Sequence record: NC_024125.2
DNA from: Escherichia phage vB_EcoM_112
DNA length: 64,000 nucleotides
Direction: 5' to 3' (one strand)
Below, piece after piece: positions 5,352 to 22,469 of the stretch (positions are counted from its first letter, which is position 1; every line of letters begins with the position of its first letter). Both the position numbers and the translations under genes were made by a program. The notes below the pieces were generated by a model that did not search any database, had not been told where the DNA came from, and worked only from the letters and a program-made list of their open reading frames with translations.

Positions 5352-6032
5352 TTATTTTAATGTTACGAAAGAAGAATTGCGTGTTTCACGAATTAAAACT
5401 GATCCATCACGATTAATGTAATAAATTAAGCTAAATAAAGTTTGGTGTGCTGACGCATGTTCAAAACTAGTTGGGTGAGATTTCCAATCCGGAGTTTCAG
5501 CAATCCATTGATAAATCCACCAAGGAACAGTACAGAATCCTGGATTTTTTCCAATCAGCTGAAGATTCGGACTAAAGTTTTCCGGAAGAGTAAATACAGA
5601 CGGCTTTTCAGATTCAACAATCTCAGCTACAGCCTGTTCGAATTTTTCTTCAACAAAAGGAGTATCTTCAATCAAAACTGAGGTATTTTCAGGAATTTTA
5701 TCCGTTTCTACTACTTCAATTTTAATGTCAGATTTAACCGGAGAATCAATCAGAAGTGCTGCTTCTGGATTGACTTCTTCATCGTCATATTTTAATCCCT
5801 CTGCGGCATCAGCAGCATCAATTAGGTCTTTAATAGATAACCCATCAGTCTCAGGCATAGGTTCACTAGCGAGCTTCTGGAGGGCTTCTTCAATATCAAT
5901 AACGATATTATCAAAAGATTTATTCTTTTTGACCTTTATACCAAACTGTTCAGCATATTCAGCTAATTTAGCCTTAGCTTCTTTATTATCATCAAGAGCC
6001 TTCAGCTCTGCAATATAATCTTTATCTATCAT
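5352..6032 (-). CDS. inh: Inh, inhibitor of prohead protease
   Basis: 226-aa acidic protein at T4 inh position between hoc and uvsW. Confidence 0.8.
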   Translation of the reverse strand: MIDKDYIAELKALDDNKEAKAKLAEYAEQFGIKVKKNKSFDNIVIDIEEALQKLASEPMPETDGLSIKDLIDAADAAEGLKYDDEEVNPEAALLIDSPVKSDIKIEVVETDKIPENTSVLIEDTPFVEEKFEQAVAEIVESEKPSVFTLPENFSPNLQLIGKNPGFCTVPWWIYQWIAETPDWKSHPTSFEHASAHQTLFSLIYYINRDGSVLIRETRNSSFVTLK

Positions 6033-6046
6033 AATATTTCCTCAGT

Positions 6047-6054
6047 ATAAATAT
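6047..6054 (+). promoter_or_regulatory. Late promoter TATAAATA upstream of uvsW
   Basis: Exact consensus ~29 nt upstream of ATG. Confidence 0.65.
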
Positions 6055-6082
6055 AGATATATTTATTACATGGTATTTAGAC

Positions 6083-7594
6083 ATGACTGACATTAAAGTA
6101 CATTTTTATGATTTTAGTCACGTGAGAATTGATTGTGAAGAAAGTACATTTCATGAACTCCGTGATTTCTTTAGCTTTGAAGCTGACGGGTATCGTTTTA
6201 ATCCGAAATACAAATATGGCCACTGGGATGGACGAATCCGTCTTTTAGATTATAATCGTCTTCTTCCATTTGGCTTAGTCGGGCAAATTAAAAAGTTCTG
6301 TGATAACTTTGGCTATAAAGCCTGGATTGACCCGCAAATTAATGAAAAAGAAGAATTATCAAGAAAAGATTTTGATGAATGGCTTTCTAAATTAGAAATC
6401 TATTCAGGAAATAAAAGAATTGAACCACACTGGTATCAAAAAGATGCAGTGTTCGAAGGATTAGTTAATCGTCGTAGAATTCTTAATCTTCCAACATCCG
6501 CTGGTAAATCGTTAATTCAAGCTTTGCTTGCGCGATATTATTTGGAAAATTATGAAGGTAAAATTCTTATCATTGTTCCAACAACTGCTCTGACAACTCA
6601 GATGGCTGATGACTTTGTTGACTATCGTTTATTCAGTCATGCAATGATAAAGAAAATTGGTGGCGGAGCATCAAAAGATGATAAATATAAAAATGATGCA
6701 CCAGTCGTTGTTGGTACATGGCAAACTGTAGTTAAACAACCAAAAGAATGGTTCTCACAGTTTGGAATGATGATGAATGATGAATGCCATCTTGCTACAG
6801 GAAAAAGTATTTCATCTATCATATCAGGTTTAAATAACTGTATGTTTAAATTTGGTCTATCAGGTTCATTACGTGATGGCAAAGCTAATATCATGCAGTA
6901 TGTTGGAATGTTTGGTGAAATATTTAAGCCAGTAACGACTTCTAAGTTAATGGAAGATGGGCAAGTAACTGAGTTAAAAATTAATAGTATTTTTCTTCGC
7001 TATCCCGATGAGTTCACTACTAAATTAAAGGGAAAAACTTACCAAGAAGAAATAAAAATTATTACTGGGCTCAGTAAAAGAAATAAATGGATCGCTAAAT
7101 TAGCTATTAAGCTTGCACAAAAAGATGAAAACGCTTTTGTCATGTTTAAACATGTATCACATGGTAAAGCTATTTTCGATTTAATTAAAAATGAATACGA
7201 TAAAGTTTATTACGTATCAGGGGAAGTTGATACCGAAACCCGCAATATAATGAAAACCTTAGCTGAAAATGGTAAAGGAATAATTATAGTAGCAAGTTAT
7301 GGTGTATTTTCTACTGGTATTTCAGTTAAAAATCTGCATCATGTTGTTTTAGCGCACGGTGTTAAATCAAAAATCATTGTATTACAAACAATCGGTCGTG
7401 TATTACGTAAGCATGGTTCTAAGACAATAGCAACTGTCTGGGACCTCATAGATGATTGTGGTGTTAAGCCAAAATCTGCTAATACGAAAAAGAAATATGT
7501 TCATTTGAACTATCTTTTAAAACACGGCATTGATCGTATTCAGCGCTACGCAGATGAAAAATTTAATTACGTAATGAAAACAGTTAATTTATAA
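6083..7594 (+). CDS. uvsW: UvsW DNA/RNA helicase (SF2)
   Basis: 503 aa; Walker A LPTSAGKS, DECH box (MMMNDECH), helicase C motifs; late promoter TATAAATA upstream. Confidence 0.92.
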   Translation: MTDIKVHFYDFSHVRIDCEESTFHELRDFFSFEADGYRFNPKYKYGHWDGRIRLLDYNRLLPFGLVGQIKKFCDNFGYKAWIDPQINEKEELSRKDFDEWLSKLEIYSGNKRIEPHWYQKDAVFEGLVNRRRILNLPTSAGKSLIQALLARYYLENYEGKILIIVPTTALTTQMADDFVDYRLFSHAMIKKIGGGASKDDKYKNDAPVVVGTWQTVVKQPKEWFSQFGMMMNDECHLATGKSISSIISGLNNCMFKFGLSGSLRDGKANIMQYVGMFGEIFKPVTTSKLMEDGQVTELKINSIFLRYPDEFTTKLKGKTYQEEIKIITGLSKRNKWIAKLAIKLAQKDENAFVMFKHVSHGKAIFDLIKNEYDKVYYVSGEVDTETRNIMKTLAENGKGIIIVASYGVFSTGISVKNLHHVVLAHGVKSKIIVLQTIGRVLRKHGSKTIATVWDLIDDCGVKPKSANTKKKYVHLNYLLKHGIDRIQRYADEKFNYVMKTVNL

Positions 7595-16960: not shown

Positions 16961-19012
16961 TTATCCTTGAACGAACTTGTAAGGCATGTTTGCAATATCT
17001 ATGCAAGACGCAATAATTCCAAGAGATGATTCTACTTTCTGTTTAACATTTGATGAAACAAATGATGCAAAGTCAACTCTATCTTCTATATCACCTGTCA
17101 TTGTAACCAATTCACCAGTTTCCATTAAACGGTCACCGTCATAAATTACCGATTCGGTGAGTTCTTCTGTGGTCATAACTTCAGCTTGAATAAGCTTGTT
17201 GTTAGTTCTAACTGTTCCATCGTTGTAAGATGCATCGGTTATTTTATTAACTTTGACCATTAATCCACGTGGCAAAATGACTTCCATTTCATTTGAAGGC
17301 GCTAAACTTCCACCGGGTAAAACAACATTGACCTTATCAGCCCCAGTAATAACCCATCCAATTCCAACTAAATTATCGCTAGAATTTACAAGTCCTTCAT
17401 CAGTTTTATCAATAGAAACACTTAAACGCTTTTCGTCTGGTAAAACACCCACAGATGAATCAGTCATCCAAGTACCAAAAATATTTGGATATAATGATGT
17501 TGACACAAAGTTTCTAAAATAAAAAACTCGATTTTTTACCATTGCTTCATATATTGAAGGTAACATTCGTTGTGAACGATACAAAGTAATACCTTTTGGT
17601 AATCGTTCACCATTTTTAAAGGCTGAATCTAAATTATCAATGGCTTGTTCTATTTCAGGTGCTGTTAAAATACTTGTACGCTCATCTGGATTATATAATC
17701 CCAAAAGAGCATTATTTATGTCTACATATCCTGAACCTACATATTCACGAATTCCGCGTTTTTGCGCTGGTGTGTATTTAGATGAATCTTTATTTTCGAC
17801 TATAGGATGTAATGACCATCCAGCGGTAAGAGCATATCCACGTAATTCTCTTCGAATAATCTTTGTTTTTATTGCATTCCAAGAATTTTGTACTAACTCA
17901 TTTGCAGCATCTTGGTTTAAATGCGAATGTCTGTTAATATTTCTTTCAAACCAAGCACCTTTATATTTTTCTAAAGTATCATCGACGATAGAAGCAATAG
18001 TTTCTAAAGTTTTTATTGAAGTAATAGATTCTTTTCGTAATTTTTCTAAAGCTTTATTTTTTATTTCTGCATTAATAATGGATTCTTTATCTTCAGGAAT
18101 TATAGAAGCTTCTCTGAATGCCATCCCAGCTGTAACACTGCTAAGAGCATTCTCTAGTGCAAATCCTGAAGTAGAAATTACCGTTAATTCATTAGAATCA
18201 GAAATTAAAGGAGCGTCCGCTGGTTTATTTAATTCTGCCGCTGAAGCCTCAAATTTTTGAAACATCGGTGTTTCAAATCTAGAAGATTCCAATGACTGAC
18301 TTTGTGCAATTGCTCTACGGGAAATTTTAACTTTAACGATTACAGCTTGGTCAGAACGTTTATCATTTTCTTGTGCAATAGATGCTGCAATTGCCTCATT
18401 TTTAGTTACTTGAGCTCCAGTATCTTTATTGATATAAACATCACCGACCTTCGATTCAACTTTAGTAAAGAGCTCGGTACTAATTTCCGGAACCCCTGGA
18501 ATGTCTTCTAGTGATACATTTTTGCGATGTATAAGAATATATGCATACTTTTTATCATAATCCCAGAGTTCCTTAAGAAGGACGTATCTGCCACCTGAAC
18601 GACTACGGATAAGTCTATCAGCAATAACTTGAATTTGTCGAGCTTGGCCAGCAGTTTTAGACTTAAGAATACGAAGCATACAAGCATCAATTTTATACTG
18701 ACGCATTGTTTGCAATGCAACAGTAAAAACCGAATTGATATAATTAATTGGGCTTGGACCAAGACCTTTCAATTTAGCAATTGAACCTTTAGCGGTTAAT
18801 GTAAAAGGAACAATATGCATCATTTTATCGCCCATCTTTAAATCACGATTAGTATCACCTCCAGATGTATAGGTACATAAACGAAAGCCTGGTTGTTCAA
18901 TTGCGTCATCAACATGAACTGAAAAAATTTGCGGTATTTTCTTCTTTGGATTTAAGTTTGTAATCGGAAGAGTAGTATCTTCGTCAAATAATTCTGTAAT
19001 TAGTTCCATCAT
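16961..19012 (-). CDS. alt: Alt, ADP-ribosyltransferase packaged in the head
   Basis: 683-codon ORF (T4 Alt 682 aa); N-terminus MELITELF; late-promoter-like TATAAATA on minus strand at 19033-19040. Confidence 0.9.
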   Translation of the reverse strand: MMELITELFDEDTTLPITNLNPKKKIPQIFSVHVDDAIEQPGFRLCTYTSGGDTNRDLKMGDKMMHIVPFTLTAKGSIAKLKGLGPSPINYINSVFTVALQTMRQYKIDACMLRILKSKTAGQARQIQVIADRLIRSRSGGRYVLLKELWDYDKKYAYILIHRKNVSLEDIPGVPEISTELFTKVESKVGDVYINKDTGAQVTKNEAIAASIAQENDKRSDQAVIVKVKISRRAIAQSQSLESSRFETPMFQKFEASAAELNKPADAPLISDSNELTVISTSGFALENALSSVTAGMAFREASIIPEDKESIINAEIKNKALEKLRKESITSIKTLETIASIVDDTLEKYKGAWFERNINRHSHLNQDAANELVQNSWNAIKTKIIRRELRGYALTAGWSLHPIVENKDSSKYTPAQKRGIREYVGSGYVDINNALLGLYNPDERTSILTAPEIEQAIDNLDSAFKNGERLPKGITLYRSQRMLPSIYEAMVKNRVFYFRNFVSTSLYPNIFGTWMTDSSVGVLPDEKRLSVSIDKTDEGLVNSSDNLVGIGWVITGADKVNVVLPGGSLAPSNEMEVILPRGLMVKVNKITDASYNDGTVRTNNKLIQAEVMTTEELTESVIYDGDRLMETGELVTMTGDIEDRVDFASFVSSNVKQKVESSLGIIASCIDIANMPYKFVQG

Positions 19013-19063: not shown

Positions 19064-19250
19064 AGTAATCTAGTGGTAAGAGAGTACGATATATTTCAAA
19101 CTTTGGTCCTTTTTCATAGGCATCAAATGTTTCTGTGAATTTATTATAAGCGTATGCATCTACAAATTCGAGAACGATTTGTGATACAGAAGTAGAAACA
19201 TCTCCACCTTCTTTTTGAGCAATGACAATTGCTTCTAAGTAAGCTTTCAT
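19062..19250 (-). CDS. Hypothetical 62-aa protein between alt and gene 30
   Basis: ORF translationally coupled to gene 30 stop. Confidence 0.55.
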   Translation of the reverse strand: MKAYLEAIVIAQKEGGDVSTSVSQIVLEFVDAYAYNKFTETFDAYEKGPKFEIYRTLLPLDY

Positions 19251-20710
19251 AGACCAGTTACCTCATGAAAATCGCCAAATACATCTTCGAACGTATTAGC
19301 TTTAGTTTTATCTTCGCGTAAACGAATCGCAATCGGAAGAAATAATTTAACGTAATCAGTGCGGCCATCAGATTTTAACCAACCGTTGCATTCGCACTCT
19401 AGAATTTTTCCAATATAATAATTTTGGTTTTCCATAATGCGAGTACGGTCAAGTTCATGCGATTTTACACCGGCTTTATCTTTTAAGCCTGAACCAGCAT
19501 TTACCTTAATTTTTCCACACTCTGACTCAAGAATAAATCCACCTGCTTTAGTAGGGTCTTTACGGTGAGGATAAATTCCTACAATTTTTAAATCAACATC
19601 AATTACTTCTTTAAATTTATAAAGATTTTTTGAACGGGCATTTTCCCATAACCCATCAACGTTTTTGAGAATAATACCTTCAAGACCTTGGTCAATATAC
19701 TTTTTATAAATTACCTTGGCTTCGTCTAGGTTATTTACTACCTGGTTTTCAATTAAAATTACTTTATCATAGCCTGATGTCATTTGTTCTAGTTTAGAAA
19801 AACGTACATCATATTTCAAACGAAATGCAGGAAGACCGTATATTTCTACCAACGGTACATAATCCCAGACCTGAAACTTCATGCATTGAGCTTCTTTTTC
19901 AGAAATGGTTCCCTTTAAAGATTTATTAGCGATTCCATTAGAAGTAGTACGTGATTCAGCTACTTCGGCGAATTCTTTGGCTTTACTAATTTCAGGATAA
20001 GCATCAAAAAGAAAATCTAGGCCTTCTGGTTCCTTTTTAACTTGCTCATGGTATACCAATTCGCCATCAATTAACACACCTTCTGGATGAATCTGGCGGG
20101 CTTCAGCAGTCATTTTGATTAACTCTTCCTTAAGAAGATCTAATCCTAGATATTCATTACCAGCTCGTGATAAAAGACGAACATCATCTAATTCATCACC
20201 TCTGACTTCGGCAAAGCACCGAGCTCCATCAGCTTTTAATTGGGCAAAGGCTGGAAATTTGATATTCTTATTAATGCCTTTTTCATCATAAGAACTTGCC
20301 AGCATTTGAGGTTGTTCAGGAATTAAACCTGGCCAAACTTTGTTTGCAATAGATACTGAAGCACCGCATTCAAGGTCTCGCATCATCACCCGACGCAAAA
20401 CTTCAACATCATCTTTTTTACCGTCAGTAATATATCCAGTTAATTCCTCAATTGCTGCATTGCCAGTTAATTTCCGAGTAGCTAACGTGAATTCAATGAA
20501 GTCAAGCATATCGGTAATAGTCAGCATTCCAAAACTCTGGGTAGCAATACCAGGTTTAGGCCATTTCTTGATATAATACTGCAACCCACGAGAATAAGTT
20601 AAACGATATACTCGTTTAAGCAATTCATTATCTTTATTCTTTTCAAGAATTGCTTGCTTCTGCTTAGTTGAACCAATAGATGCTATTTCGTTCAGAATTT
20701 TAAGAATCAT
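19247..20710 (-). CDS. 30: ATP-dependent DNA ligase gp30
   Basis: 487 aa; near-identical to remembered T4 DNA ligase; motif I AQLKADGAR (KxDG). Confidence 0.95.
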   Translation of the reverse strand: MILKILNEIASIGSTKQKQAILEKNKDNELLKRVYRLTYSRGLQYYIKKWPKPGIATQSFGMLTITDMLDFIEFTLATRKLTGNAAIEELTGYITDGKKDDVEVLRRVMMRDLECGASVSIANKVWPGLIPEQPQMLASSYDEKGINKNIKFPAFAQLKADGARCFAEVRGDELDDVRLLSRAGNEYLGLDLLKEELIKMTAEARQIHPEGVLIDGELVYHEQVKKEPEGLDFLFDAYPEISKAKEFAEVAESRTTSNGIANKSLKGTISEKEAQCMKFQVWDYVPLVEIYGLPAFRLKYDVRFSKLEQMTSGYDKVILIENQVVNNLDEAKVIYKKYIDQGLEGIILKNVDGLWENARSKNLYKFKEVIDVDLKIVGIYPHRKDPTKAGGFILESECGKIKVNAGSGLKDKAGVKSHELDRTRIMENQNYYIGKILECECNGWLKSDGRTDYVKLFLPIAIRLREDKTKANTFEDVFGDFHEVTGL

Positions 20711-20976
20711 TGTTCATCCTTTAGAGTTTGGTTTACAGCTCTATTATAAATCAATTCATCATTAAGCTCAGTCAAAGACCTATGATATGTAGTTCTAACT
20801 TTATTTCCTTGCATCCAGTGCTTGACGTAAATGAAACCTTGTTCTACGCATTTTTTAAAAATTCGTTCGTCTTTTTGAGCACGGAATTCTGGATTGCATC
20901 TAAAAAATTGATTTACGTGACCGTAATCACGTGTAGTATTACCTTCATTTTCATAAATAGTATGAACAACAAACAT
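20707..20976 (-). CDS. Hypothetical protein (30.1 position)
   Basis: 89-aa ORF, coupled to neighbours. Confidence 0.6.
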   Translation of the reverse strand: MFVVHTIYENEGNTTRDYGHVNQFFRCNPEFRAQKDERIFKKCVEQGFIYVKHWMQGNKVRTTYHRSLTELNDELIYNRAVNQTLKDEQ

Positions 20977-21815
20977 TAGAATGCTCCTTGGAAAATATTA
21001 TCACCACTAGTAGGTCTATTATACAAATACTCTATACCGCCGGGTTTAATATAGTTCCATGTCTGAAACGGATGTGTCTGATATGGATGATATAGATGAT
21101 TATAAGGATTAAATCCAGGAGTTCTCCAGGTAGTGTTCCAAGGAAAAGAATCGTTTTTAATCATCTTTTCAATTACATCTTTTATAGCTTTTTCACTATC
21201 AAAACTTTCTTTATTTTCCTTCGGTGAAAAAAGCTTATTCTCTACATCGTTCCATGTATAAACTCGCTGAGCAGTTTTTGGAATACTGTCACGTTCCCCT
21301 CGAGCCATCCAATAAACAGGAACATTTAATATTTCACTCGCGTGATCGCAGTGGTGAGCGAGATCGTCAATATAACAAATCACGTTATATTTCTCTTTTG
21401 CCTTTTTAAACAACTCTTCTTTTGAAGAATCATGACCACACATCAGTACTTCTGAGAAGGCACCAGGAAAAAGAGCATTCAAATTAAATTGACGATTCAG
21501 CAGAGCGTCAATAGAATCACCCAATGCTGTAACAGCTACAAAATTATAATCTTCTTTTAATTTGTTAATTACACACAGGGCATCTTTATATGGAGACAAG
21601 TAACGAATAAAATCTGAACGATTGTATTTTTCAATTAACTTGACGCCAAGTTCTTCATCACAATTAAAAAGTTTACCAGGAGAAATAAATTTTTCATCTT
21701 GGATCATTTTTAAAATATGTTCCAATGGAAGATTATATTTCTGAGCAAAATAAGGAAGGCCTGATTGCCAGCTTAAACATACTCCATCAATATCAGTTAA
21801 AATAGTAGGCTTCAT
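20976..21815 (-). CDS. HAD-superfamily hydrolase / 5'-deoxynucleotidase-like protein (30.2 position)
   Basis: 279 aa; N-terminal ILTDIDGVC matches HAD motif I (DxDGV). Confidence 0.7.
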   Translation of the reverse strand: MKPTILTDIDGVCLSWQSGLPYFAQKYNLPLEHILKMIQDEKFISPGKLFNCDEELGVKLIEKYNRSDFIRYLSPYKDALCVINKLKEDYNFVAVTALGDSIDALLNRQFNLNALFPGAFSEVLMCGHDSSKEELFKKAKEKYNVICYIDDLAHHCDHASEILNVPVYWMARGERDSIPKTAQRVYTWNDVENKLFSPKENKESFDSEKAIKDVIEKMIKNDSFPWNTTWRTPGFNPYNHLYHPYQTHPFQTWNYIKPGGIEYLYNRPTSGDNIFQGAF

Positions 21816-22276
21816 AGAGAGTCTCTTAATAGGTTTAACACATCAATAAATTCAGCTTCGGTTAGTATTGTATCATCTTTTGTTAGACCACTAGCCATGC
21901 TGTGCTTCAAAACTTTTCCTTTCGAGGCTTGTAATGCATCACGAAAGCCCTTGTTTTGGATTGCTGCTTCAAAATATGCATTTGTGTATAATTCTTTCCA
22001 CGCCGGGGAGTATCTTGAAAACGGAACTCCAAGCCAGAAGAGGGTCCCACGGTCCTGAGCTCTAGCATAAGACCTTCCAGCTTGTTGAGCGGCAAGCCCG
22101 GATAACCCAAATATACGACGTTGTTGTTCAACATTTTTCACCTTGCATCCTTGGAGGAATCCTTCAAGACCTCCAAATTGAATACCATCCATAACGAAAG
22201 GCCATTGGGCGAAATTACTTAATGCACATGATGGCCACCTAAAATTGCTTCTAATCTCTAACTCAGACATTTTCAA
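21812..22276 (-). CDS. NADAR (YbiA/DUF1768-like) domain protein (30.3 position)
   Basis: 154 aa; LSNFAQWPFVMDGIQFGGLEGFLQGCK resembles YbiA/NADAR core (SNFxxWP...DG...E.fQ..K). Confidence 0.65.
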   Translation of the reverse strand: MKMSELEIRSNFRWPSCALSNFAQWPFVMDGIQFGGLEGFLQGCKVKNVEQQRRIFGLSGLAAQQAGRSYARAQDRGTLFWLGVPFSRYSPAWKELYTNAYFEAAIQNKGFRDALQASKGKVLKHSMASGLTKDDTILTEAEFIDVLNLLRDSL

Positions 22277-22469
22277 TGCTTATAATTTCAACATCAGCCC
22301 AATGACCATAGCAAGGAAGACGAAATTCAACTGGCCAGTTAGGGTCCTTTTCTAATATAATAGACTCAACTCGTGGTTCTTCATGTTCATCAGTATATGG
22401 ATTTTTATCTGTTACTTTATATGTGACCTTAATGTACTGAATTCCAAAAATCTTATTAATTATATTCAT
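22263..22469 (-). CDS. Hypothetical 68-aa protein
   Basis: ORF in operon, overlapping starts/stops. Confidence 0.5.
   Translation of the reverse strand: MNIINKIFGIQYIKVTYKVTDKNPYTDEHEEPRVESIILEKDPNWPVEFRLPCYGHWADVEIISIENV

What the first reader, a model, noticed from the sequence alone, without database searches (positions are those of the whole stretch)
20976..22276. HAD-like hydrolase and NADAR-domain protein pair in the gene 30 accessory cluster
ORF 20976-21815 starts with the HAD motif ILTDIDGVC. The adjacent ORF 21812-22276 has the YbiA/NADAR core (LSNFAQWPFVMDGIQFGGLEGFLQGCK). NADAR domains have been reported to hydrolyse ADP-ribose from guanine in DNA and so counter DarT-type ADP-ribosylating defence toxins. 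A phage-encoded NADAR next to a nucleotidase-like HAD enzyme is therefore a candidate counter-defence or nucleotide-repair module. The annotation is from motif recognition only.
Basis: partly seen in the sequence, partly recalled or inferred. Interest (0 to 1): 0.55.

Follow-up and report, generated by a model that had tools for sequence, protein, structure and literature searches.

The report
T4 adfN plus neighbouring HAD phosphatase
These are phage T4 genes 30.2 and 30.3: 30.3 is the already characterised enzyme AdfN, which strips ADP-ribose off phage DNA to defeat the bacterial DarTG1 defence, and 30.2 is an uncharacterised HAD-type phosphatase that published data show is not needed for that job.

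Summary
The window is a Tequatrovirus (T4-like) genome. On the minus strand, ORF 20976-21815 is gene 30.2 and ORF 21812-22270 is gene 30.3. The true 30.3 start is the ATG at 22270, not the TTG at 22276.

gp30.3 is 151/152 identical to T4 gp30.3, which is AdfN. AdfN is a NADAR-fold DNA ADP-ribosylglycohydrolase shown in 2024-2025 to remove guanine-ADP-ribose and to be necessary for T4 and T2 resistance to DarTG1. Fold search and transitive profile links here confirm NADAR membership, with E36, K43 and the phage-type H123. The query itself does not hit Pfam NADAR.

The "module" idea is not supported:
- In a published T4 transposon screen, insertions in 30.2 are neutral under DarTG1, while 30.3 insertions are lost.
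- Adjacency to the NADAR holds in only 21 of 79 related loci, whereas 30.2 sits beside DNA ligase in 68.
- A Krischvirus genome has the NADAR but no 30.2.

Verdict: correct reading of an already known counter-defence gene, next to an ordinary uncharacterised phosphatase.

The parts
21812..22270 (-). Gene 30.3 = adfN. It encodes a NADAR-fold DNA ADP-ribosylglycohydrolase of 152 aa. Catalytic codons: E36 at 22163-22165, K43 at 22142-22144, H123 at 21902-21904.
   Evidence: PF08010 at E=2e-70. 151/152 identical to T4 gp30.3. AF2 pLDDT 93. Foldseek top hits are 2b3w, 8bau and 8bat. E36 and H123 are invariant and K43 is >=90% conserved. Function was shown for the T4 protein.
20976..21815 (-). Gene 30.2. 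It encodes a HAD-superfamily (subfamily IA, C1-cap) phosphatase-like protein of 279 aa. The catalytic core is residues 1-197 (nt 21225-21815). Residues 198-279 (nt 20979-21224) form a low-confidence aromatic/proline-rich C-terminal tail.
21780..21794 (-). HAD motif I codons D8-I-D10-G-V12. D8 is the predicted nucleophile and D10 the predicted general acid/base.
   Evidence: Seen directly in the sequence. D8, D10 and G11 are invariant in 41 homologues.
21812..21815 (-). ATGA overlap of the 30.3 stop codon with the 30.2 start codon.
   Evidence: Sequence. The same arrangement occurs in T4.
22263..22469 (-). Gene 30.4 (68 aa). It lies immediately upstream of adfN, and its last 8 nt overlap the adfN start. 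It is context, not part of the enzyme pair.
   Evidence: ORF. It is the only other gene significantly depleted under DarTG1 in the T4 transposon screen. It is restricted to T-even coliphages and is split in T2.
19247..20976 (-). Genes 30.1 (DUF3045, 20707-20976) and 30 (ATP-dependent DNA ligase, 19247-20710). These are the conserved downstream neighbours of 30.2.
   Evidence: Pfam DUF3045, T4 annotation, synteny counts.

Best explanation
The two ORFs are Tequatrovirus genes 30.3 (adfN) and 30.2.

AdfN. It is an orphan, antitoxin-like NADAR enzyme. During infection it hydrolyses the N-glycosidic bond between ADP-ribose and guanine that the host DarT1 toxin puts on phage DNA. This restores replicable DNA and defeats DarTG1 defence. 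This mechanism was shown experimentally for the T4 protein and is carried over here on the basis of 99% identity. The catalytic residues are E36, K43 and the phage-specific H123.

gp30.2. It is an independent, dispensable HAD-superfamily phosphomonoesterase. The following steps are inferred, not shown: D8 forms an aspartyl-phosphate intermediate, D10 acts as acid/base, T96 and K132 hold the phosphate, D150/D151 hold Mg2+, and a four-to-five-helix C1 cap closes over a small substrate. Its closest relatives are NT5C-type 5'(3')-deoxyribonucleotidases, so the most likely substrate is a (deoxy)nucleoside monophosphate.

Relationship. The two genes are neighbours because both sit in the tightly packed early-gene block upstream of DNA ligase, not because they work together against DarTG1. 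The evolutionarily stable neighbour of 30.2 is the ligase gene, not the NADAR.
For: AdfN identity and fold:
- 151/152 identical to T4 gp30.3 and PF08010 at 2e-70.
- Foldseek's only matches with probability >=0.99 are the three NADAR structures.
- The family profile aligns SNFa..EGFlQ..K with YbiA at E=0.009.
- 15 of 39 homologues hit Pfam NADAR, best 1.5e-7.

AdfN function (literature):
- T4 and T2 deleted for adfN cannot plaque on DarTG1 hosts.
- Purified AdfN, but not the E36A mutant, removes ADP-ribose from DarT1-modified DNA.
- It does not act on DarTG2 (thymidine) modification.
- In vitro guanine-ADPr hydrolysis was shown independently.
- Genome-wide Tn-seq gives 30.3 a log2FC of -7.25 under DarTG1.

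gp30.2 as a HAD enzyme:
- Motif residues are conserved, and the core is modelled with confidence.
- 9 of 41 homologues hit Pfam Hydrolase and 6 of 41 hit NT5C.
- Distant relatives P0315 and P0325 exceed the NT5C gathering score.
- In the profile alignment to mouse cdN, the invariant W16 falls on the F of DGVLADF.

Independence of the two genes:
- 30.2 insertions are neutral in LB, in M9 and under DarTG1.
- Of 79 IMG/VR loci carrying 30.2, the NADAR is adjacent in 21, lies 0.2-1.2 kb upstream in 16 and is absent from the flanks in 39. Ligase lies within 700 nt in 68.
- The NADAR sits elsewhere in Karamvirus and Jiaodavirus.
- Krischvirus KMB43 has a NADAR directly upstream of ligase and no 30.2 anywhere in its genome.
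- The most distant 30.2 relatives still sit within 0.7 kb of a ligase gene, with no NADAR nearby.
Against: - No enzymatic activity or substrate of gp30.2 has been measured. The query itself gets no significant Pfam or NCBIfam hit, and the sequence-only PDB hit to cdN is not significant (E=0.13-1.4). The nucleotidase assignment therefore rests on fold ranking and transitive hits.
- The Tn-seq data cover one host, one plasmid-borne DarTG1 and pooled competition. They do not exclude a modulatory or redundant contribution of 30.2.
- At whole-genome level 30.2 and 30.3 have nearly the same taxonomic spread (1451 vs 1509 phage records).
- AdfN is reported to need an unidentified T-even factor for full activity.
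Confidence: 0.85

Rival explanations
1. First reader's model. gp30.2 and AdfN form one counter-defence or repair module. For example, gp30.2 could be the unidentified T-even 'potentiating factor' that AdfN needs, or it could dispose of the ADP-ribose-derived product.
For: - The genes show a 4-nt ATGA overlap and are co-oriented in T4-, RB69- and JS98-type phages.
- AdfN from T4 fails in uninfected E. coli and only partly rescues T5 and Bas25, but fully rescues RB69. Mosigvirus-type (RB69-like) loci carry 30.2.
- The two genes have a similar genome-level distribution.
Against: - In Tn-seq, 30.2 has 71 TA sites, log2FC -0.12, p 0.61 and adjusted p 1.0 under DarTG1. Only 30.3 and 30.4 are significant.
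- Purified AdfN works alone in vitro.
- Adjacency is lost in most genera.
- A Krischvirus genome keeps a His-type AdfN-like NADAR with no 30.2.
- Any T-even-specific gene would fit the host-range argument equally well.
Confidence: 0.05
2. gp30.2 is a polynucleotide 3'-phosphatase (PNKP/Tpp1-like) that heals DNA ends for the adjacent DNA ligase.
For: - Linkage of 30.2 to ligase is very stable: 68 of 79 loci within 700 nt, and it persists even where gene order is inverted.
- There is a weak phrog_415 'polynucleotide kinase' hit at E=0.004.
Against: - gp30.2 has a roughly 75-residue helical C1 cap inserted after motif I. From general knowledge of HAD enzymes, such caps go with small-molecule substrates, whereas polynucleotide phosphatases are capless.
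- Capped subfamily-IA and NT5C enzymes score higher than Pnkp.
- 30.2 is fully dispensable whereas ligase is essential.
- Linkage to a core gene may simply reflect conserved synteny.
Confidence: 0.08
3. The pair handles riboflavin-pathway intermediates, like E. coli YbiA (an N-glycosidase) together with YigB-type HAD phosphatases.
For: YbiA is the best structural match of gp30.3. One gp30.2 homologue carries the automatic JGI name 'FMN phosphatase YigB'. The riboflavin role of YbiA-type NADARs is cited.
Against: The T4 protein is experimentally a DNA ADP-ribosylglycohydrolase. The phage clade has His in place of the YbiA-type Glu and is reported to be closest to DarT1-linked NADARs. No riboflavin genes are nearby.
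Confidence: 0.02

Closest known systems
T4 AdfN (gp30.3, anti-DarT factor NADAR; Johannesman et al. 2025, PMC11825919)
   Same: 151/152 residues are identical, with the same length, the same flanking genes (30.4 upstream, 30.2 downstream) and the same catalytic E36/K43/H123.
   Different: There is one substitution, M125 here versus I125 in T4, two residues after H123. Both residues are common at that position in the family alignment. No functional difference is expected.
DarG1-type NADAR antitoxins of DarT1-NADAR operons (e.g. Geobacter lovleyi NADAR, PDB 8bat)
   Same: Same fold (Foldseek probability 0.99). According to the literature it has the same chemistry, guanine de-ADP-ribosylation.
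   Different: AdfN is an orphan with no cognate DarT described. It lacks the N-terminal extension and has His where DarG1-type proteins have Asp. It cannot neutralise DarT1 in uninfected E. coli.
E. coli YbiA (PDB 2b3w), founding NADAR/DUF1768 member
   Same: It is the best structural match (E=5e-5, TM 0.60-0.66) and shares the SNF...E..Q..K motif.
   Different: Identity is 18%. It has Glu rather than His at the third catalytic position and is a housekeeping enzyme linked to riboflavin metabolism.
NT5C family 5'(3')-deoxyribonucleotidases (cdN/mdN; PDB 2jao, 2i7d, 1q92; Staphylococcus 3bwv)
   Same: HAD core plus a helical C1 cap of similar size, and a DxDGV(L)xx[F/W] start. These give the highest target coverage in Foldseek (TMt 0.62-0.71). 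Distant gp30.2 relatives pass the Pfam NT5C threshold.
   Different: Identity is only 14-21%. The query does not hit the NT5C HMM. gp30.2 has family-specific invariant residues (W16, S18, Y64, S67, R108, N111, R172). In T-even-type members it also has an extra ~80-residue disordered tail. The substrate is unknown.
T4 polynucleotide kinase 3'-phosphatase domain (PDB 1ltq, 5uj0)
   Different: The match covers only the core: 126-129 aligned residues against 150-180 for the capped enzymes. From general knowledge, Pnkp lacks a cap and acts on polynucleotide ends.

Membership tests
NADAR superfamily (YbiA fold) | [quoted passage not shown] | tested here: met
   The AF2 model has pLDDT 93 and pTM 0.87. 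The only Foldseek PDB hits with probability >=0.99 are 2b3w, 8bau and 8bat.
NADAR superfamily (YbiA fold) | Conserved catalytic Glu and Lys in the E-x(6)-K helix motif | tested here: met
   E36 is invariant and K43 is >=90% conserved in 39 homologues. Both align to the E and K of YbiA in the profile hit. The E36A and K43A mutant phenotypes are in the literature.
NADAR superfamily (YbiA fold) | Charged catalytic residue in the last strand (Glu in YbiA type, Asp in DarT1-linked type, His in phage gp30.3 type) | tested here: met
   H123 is invariant. The His variant is the described hallmark of the phage gp30.3 clade.
NADAR superfamily (YbiA fold) | Significant match to the Pfam NADAR HMM (PF08719) | tested here: not met
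   The query gets no hit even at E<=10. The link is only transitive: 15 of 39 homologues hit PF08719, best 1.5e-7. The query belongs to the separate Pfam model PF08010.
NADAR superfamily (YbiA fold) | Hydrolysis of guanine-linked ADP-ribose on DNA | not testable with these tools
   Reported for the 99%-identical T4 protein.
AdfN (T4 gp30.3) orthologue | Near-identity and conserved position between 30.4 and 30.2 | tested here: met
   151/152 identity and the same gene order as NC_000866.
AdfN (T4 gp30.3) orthologue | Full-length C-terminal helix (lost in the inactive RB69 allele) | tested here: met
   The ORF is a full 152 aa and ends ...LNLLRDSL. The model has a helix at residues 138-151. The RB69 truncation is described.
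HAD superfamily | Motif I DxDx[T/V] | tested here: met
   The sequence is D8-I-D10-G11-V12. D8, D10 and G11 are invariant in 41 sequences.
HAD superfamily | Motif II (S/T), motif III (K/R), motif IV (DD) | tested here: met
   T96 is >=90% conserved, K132 is invariant, and D150/D151 are >=90% conserved.
HAD superfamily | Rossmann-like HAD core fold | tested here: met
HAD superfamily | Significant match to a curated HAD HMM | tested here: not met
   The query gets no Pfam or NCBIfam HAD hit. 9 of 41 homologues hit PF00702 only weakly, best 3.5e-4.
NT5C 5'(3')-deoxyribonucleotidase family (PF06941) | Match to the NT5C HMM above the gathering score | tested here: inconclusive
   The query has no hit. 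6 of 41 close homologues hit, best 1.2e-4. Distant relatives P0315 (34.6 bits) and P0325 (26.6 bits) exceed the 24.8-bit cut-off.
NT5C 5'(3')-deoxyribonucleotidase family (PF06941) | Helical C1 cap after motif I, with an aromatic residue at DGVLxx[F] that contacts the base | tested here: inconclusive
   The model has cap helices at residues 16-86. The invariant W16 aligns to F of cdN DGVLADF. The base-stacking role of that Phe is recalled from the cdN/mdN literature and was not checked here.
NT5C 5'(3')-deoxyribonucleotidase family (PF06941) | dNMP phosphatase activity | not testable with these tools
   No biochemical data on gp30.2 were found. 'gp30.2' returned no paper, and the '30.2' hits checked were unrelated.

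The most novel reading that the evidence does not exclude
The unidentified 'T-even factor' that AdfN needs for full activity may be encoded next door. The candidate is not the HAD gene 30.2, which Tn-seq excludes, but the 68-aa gene 30.4, whose stop codon overlaps the adfN start.

For: 30.4 is the only other T4 gene significantly depleted under DarTG1 (log2FC -1.79, adjusted p 0.014). It is neutral in M9 medium. It is restricted to T-even coliphages. In the loci sampled it always abuts adfN.

Against: the milder depletion fits a polar or translational-coupling effect on adfN. In addition, 30.4 is split in both T2 records examined, although T2 resists DarTG1 through AdfN.
Probability: 0.07. Interest if true: 0.55.

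Novelty: already known. Interest (0 to 1): 0.2.

Why it matters
AdfN matters as the first lytic-phage orphan antitoxin homologue that enzymatically reverses a DNA-modifying defence, but that finding was published in 2024-2025. This window adds only another near-identical allele.

What this analysis adds is mostly negative. The neighbouring HAD gene, an obvious suspect for AdfN's missing helper, is structurally a real phosphatase. However, published genome-wide data show it is dispensable for DarTG1 resistance, and it tracks the DNA ligase gene rather than the NADAR across T4-like phages.

gp30.2 remains one of the roughly 100 T4 genes with no assigned function. It is cheap to test: all catalytic residues are intact and a soluble domain is confidently modelled.

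Tried and rejected
- Direct HMM scans of both proteins found nothing for gp30.2 except a chance TPK match, and nothing for gp30.3 except PF08010. The libraries were Pfam at E<=10, NCBIfam and PADLOC.
- Single-sequence phmmer against PDB gave nothing significant for either protein.
- A literature search for gp30.2 returned no paper mentioning it. The '30.2' hits checked were journal volume numbers.
- The promoter and terminator scan was not above shuffled background (22 vs 20.1 promoter-like sites). It gives no sign of a private transcription unit for the pair. The nearest strong signals bracket the whole 30.8-alt.1 block.
- Fusion partners of gp30.2 relatives (P0253, P0304, P0207, P0245 and others) were scanned for hints, but Pfam recognises nothing in the extra regions.
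- Whether a HAD gene follows the NADAR in jumbo-phage contigs carrying P0141 was checked. It does not.
- gp30.4 was considered as AdfN's helper and down-weighted after finding it split in two T2 records and in a T2-like contig.

Full report
What is there

The window is a T4-like (Tequatrovirus) genome. The 2.1 kb around the finding matches about 660 phage records at 80-99% DNA identity. The gene order alt, alt.1, 30 (DNA ligase), 30.1, 30.2, 30.3, 30.4 to 30.8 on the minus strand is that of T4 NC_000866.

ORF 20976-21815 is gene 30.2 (279 aa, 273/279 identical to T4 gp30.2). ORF 21812-22270 is gene 30.3 (152 aa, 151/152 identical to T4). The T4 annotation and the published residue numbering (E36, K43) both fix the start at 22270. 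The 30.3 stop codon and the 30.2 start codon overlap as ATGA. Both quoted motifs are present.

Gene 30.3 is AdfN, a known anti-DarTG1 enzyme

The query hits Pfam PF08010 (Phage_30_3) at E=2e-70. It does not hit the Pfam NADAR model PF08719 even at E<=10. Membership in the NADAR superfamily nevertheless holds on four lines of evidence:
- Fifteen of 39 homologues hit PF08719, best 1.5e-7.
- A profile of the family finds E. coli YbiA in the PDB at E=0.009, aligning the SNF...EGF.Q..K core.
- The AlphaFold2 model (pLDDT 93) has as its only meaningful PDB matches YbiA 2b3w (E=5e-5), the Phytophthora NADAR-ADP-ribose complex 8bau, and the Geobacter DarT1-linked NADAR 8bat.
- E36 and H123 are invariant and K43 is nearly so. 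His at the third position is the described signature of the phage gp30.3 clade.

Johannesman et al. (Nat Commun 2025, PMC11825919) mapped DarTG1 resistance of T-even phages to 30.3 and renamed it adfN. They showed the following:
- T4 and T2 deleted for adfN cannot plaque on DarTG1 hosts.
- Ectopic AdfN rescues RB69.
- Purified AdfN, but not the E36A mutant, strips ADP-ribose from DarT1-modified DNA.

A Toxins 2024 paper (PMC11125620) showed guanine-specific de-ADP-ribosylation by the T4 protein in vitro. A T4 transposon-sequencing study (bioRxiv 10.1101/2025.11.20.689424) independently found that 30.3 insertions are lost under DarTG1. This half of the finding is correct and already known.

Gene 30.2 is a real HAD-superfamily enzyme of untested function

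The query has no significant curated-HMM hit. An alignment of 41 homologues shows D8, D10 and G11 (motif I) and K132 (motif III) invariant. T96 (motif II) and D150/D151 (motif IV) are at least 90% conserved.

A profile search of 1.84 billion representative proteins finds 1316 relatives, mostly 190-220 aa, which is the core domain alone. Some distant relatives pass the Pfam NT5C gathering threshold, and 6 of 41 close homologues hit NT5C weakly. In the profile alignment to mouse cdN, the invariant W16 falls on the Phe of DGVLADF.

The best inference is a Mg2+-dependent small-molecule phosphatase, most likely acting on a (deoxy)nucleoside monophosphate. The chemistry is inferred from the superfamily. 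The substrate is a guess from nearest relatives. No paper in the library mentions gp30.2.

Do the two genes form a module?

Three independent lines say no, at least for DarTG1.

(a) Genetics. The HIDEN-SEQ supplementary sheet Data S6 (control versus DarTG1) lists exactly two significant genes. They are 30.3 (mean reads 261.0 to 0.7, log2FC -7.25) and 30.4 (375.9 to 108.0, log2FC -1.79, adjusted p 0.014). Gene 30.2 has 71 TA sites and goes from 271.5 to 249.8, with log2FC -0.12, p 0.61 and adjusted p 1.0. Gene 30.2 is also non-essential in LB (72 of 72 TA sites hit) and neutral in M9 medium.

(b) Synteny. Seventy-nine IMG/VR loci encode a gp30.2 relative. The NADAR is directly adjacent in 21, lies 0.2-1.2 kb upstream in 16, and is absent from at least 3 kb of flank in 39. 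DNA ligase lies within 700 nt in 68 of these loci. In Karamvirus the NADAR sits in an unrelated early region, and in Jiaodavirus it sits inside the tRNA cluster. The most distant gp30.2 relatives I could place (39-40% identity) still lie within 0.7 kb of a ligase gene, in inverted order, with no NADAR nearby.

(c) Presence and absence. The complete Krischvirus genome OR525698 has a His-type NADAR immediately upstream of ligase and no gp30.2 homologue at E<=10 anywhere.

At whole-genome level both genes are near-universal in Straboviridae, with 1509 and 1451 phage records and similar host breakdowns. Co-occurrence therefore reflects shared ancestry rather than coupling. No private promoter or terminator sets the pair apart. 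The genes from 30.8 to alt.1 form one tightly packed co-directional block.

The open question in the literature

AdfN from T4 does not rescue DarT1-intoxicated uninfected E. coli and only partly rescues T5 and Bas25. The authors therefore postulate an unknown T-even factor. gp30.2 was the obvious positional candidate, but the Tn-seq result argues against it.

The only other hit, 30.4, encodes a 68-aa protein whose last 8 nt overlap the adfN start. It is confined to T-even coliphages (718 records). In my sample it always abuts adfN and never occurs without it.

There are also arguments against a direct role for 30.4:
- Its depletion is modest, so it may be a local polar or translational-coupling effect. 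Insertions further upstream in 30.6 and 30.7 are neutral.
- The gene is split into two short ORFs in two independent T2 records and in a T2-like contig, although T2 resists DarTG1 in an AdfN-dependent way.

I therefore give a helper role for gp30.4 only about 7%.

Verdict

That biology is published, and the protein here is one substitution away from the characterised one. The HAD neighbour is a genuine but ordinary uncharacterised phosphatase, and its stable partner in evolution is the ligase gene. The proposed two-gene counter-defence module is not supported. Novelty: already known. Interest: low.

Noticed in passing
window 22263-22469 (-), gene 30.4: This 68-aa ORF overlaps the adfN start by 8 nt. 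It is the only T4 gene besides adfN significantly depleted under DarTG1 in published Tn-seq (log2FC -1.79, adjusted p 0.014; neutral in M9). It is restricted to T-even coliphages and always abuts adfN, but it is split in two T2 records and in a T2-like contig. It is either a polar effect or a candidate AdfN helper.
   Followed up: partly
window 19247-21815 (-); loci L002-L080, L088, L090: Gene 30.2 is linked to the DNA ligase gene far more stably than to the NADAR. Ligase lies within 700 nt in 68 of 79 loci, and remains within about 0.7 kb where the order is inverted. Whether this reflects function or only conserved synteny is unresolved.
   Followed up: partly
window 20979-21224 (-), gp30.2 residues 198-279: This is a low-confidence aromatic/proline-rich tail that many homologues (190-220 aa) lack. 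It ends in a short motif, G-[T/I/G]-G-I-E-Y-[L/W/Y]-x-x-[Q/R]-P-T, that is conserved between proteins only about 50% identical in the core. It looks like a tethered docking peptide for an unknown partner. Its presence does not track NADAR adjacency.
   Followed up: partly
protein P0015 (metagenomic contig, 302 aa): This looks like a natural fusion of a gp30.2 core to a gp30.1-like (DUF3045, PF11243) C-terminal domain. It is either a Rosetta-stone hint of a 30.2-30.1 link or a frameshift or assembly artefact.
   Followed up: no
window 21907-22134 (-), ORF 30.3': This 75-aa ORF lies in the +1 frame inside adfN and is annotated in T4 as 30.3'. The open frame (76 codons stop to stop) is retained in nearly all the Tequatro-, Mosig- and Dhakavirus loci examined, but not in more distant NADAR genes. 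There is no evidence either way that it is translated.
   Followed up: partly
L083 6001-6444 (= OR525698.1 125388-125831, minus strand): The record for Krischvirus phage vB-Eco-KMB43 does not annotate its intact NADAR gene (E=1.5e-50 to the family profile), which lies directly upstream of DNA ligase. Only two small overlapping 'hypothetical' CDSs are listed there.
   Followed up: yes
window 16961-19012 (-), gene alt: The phage's own packaged ADP-ribosyltransferase Alt lies 2.8 kb downstream of the ADP-ribose-removing NADAR in the same orientation. Iyer et al. (PMC9503650) noted this co-location of ART and NADAR early genes. Tn-seq shows alt is neutral under DarTG1.
   Followed up: no
L082 (Klebsiella phage UTI-K4, Jiaodavirus) 6001-6450: In Jiaodavirus the AdfN-family NADAR sits inside the phage tRNA gene cluster, about 4 kb upstream of a Nudix hydrolase and the lysozyme gene, and far from the ligase region.
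   Followed up: no
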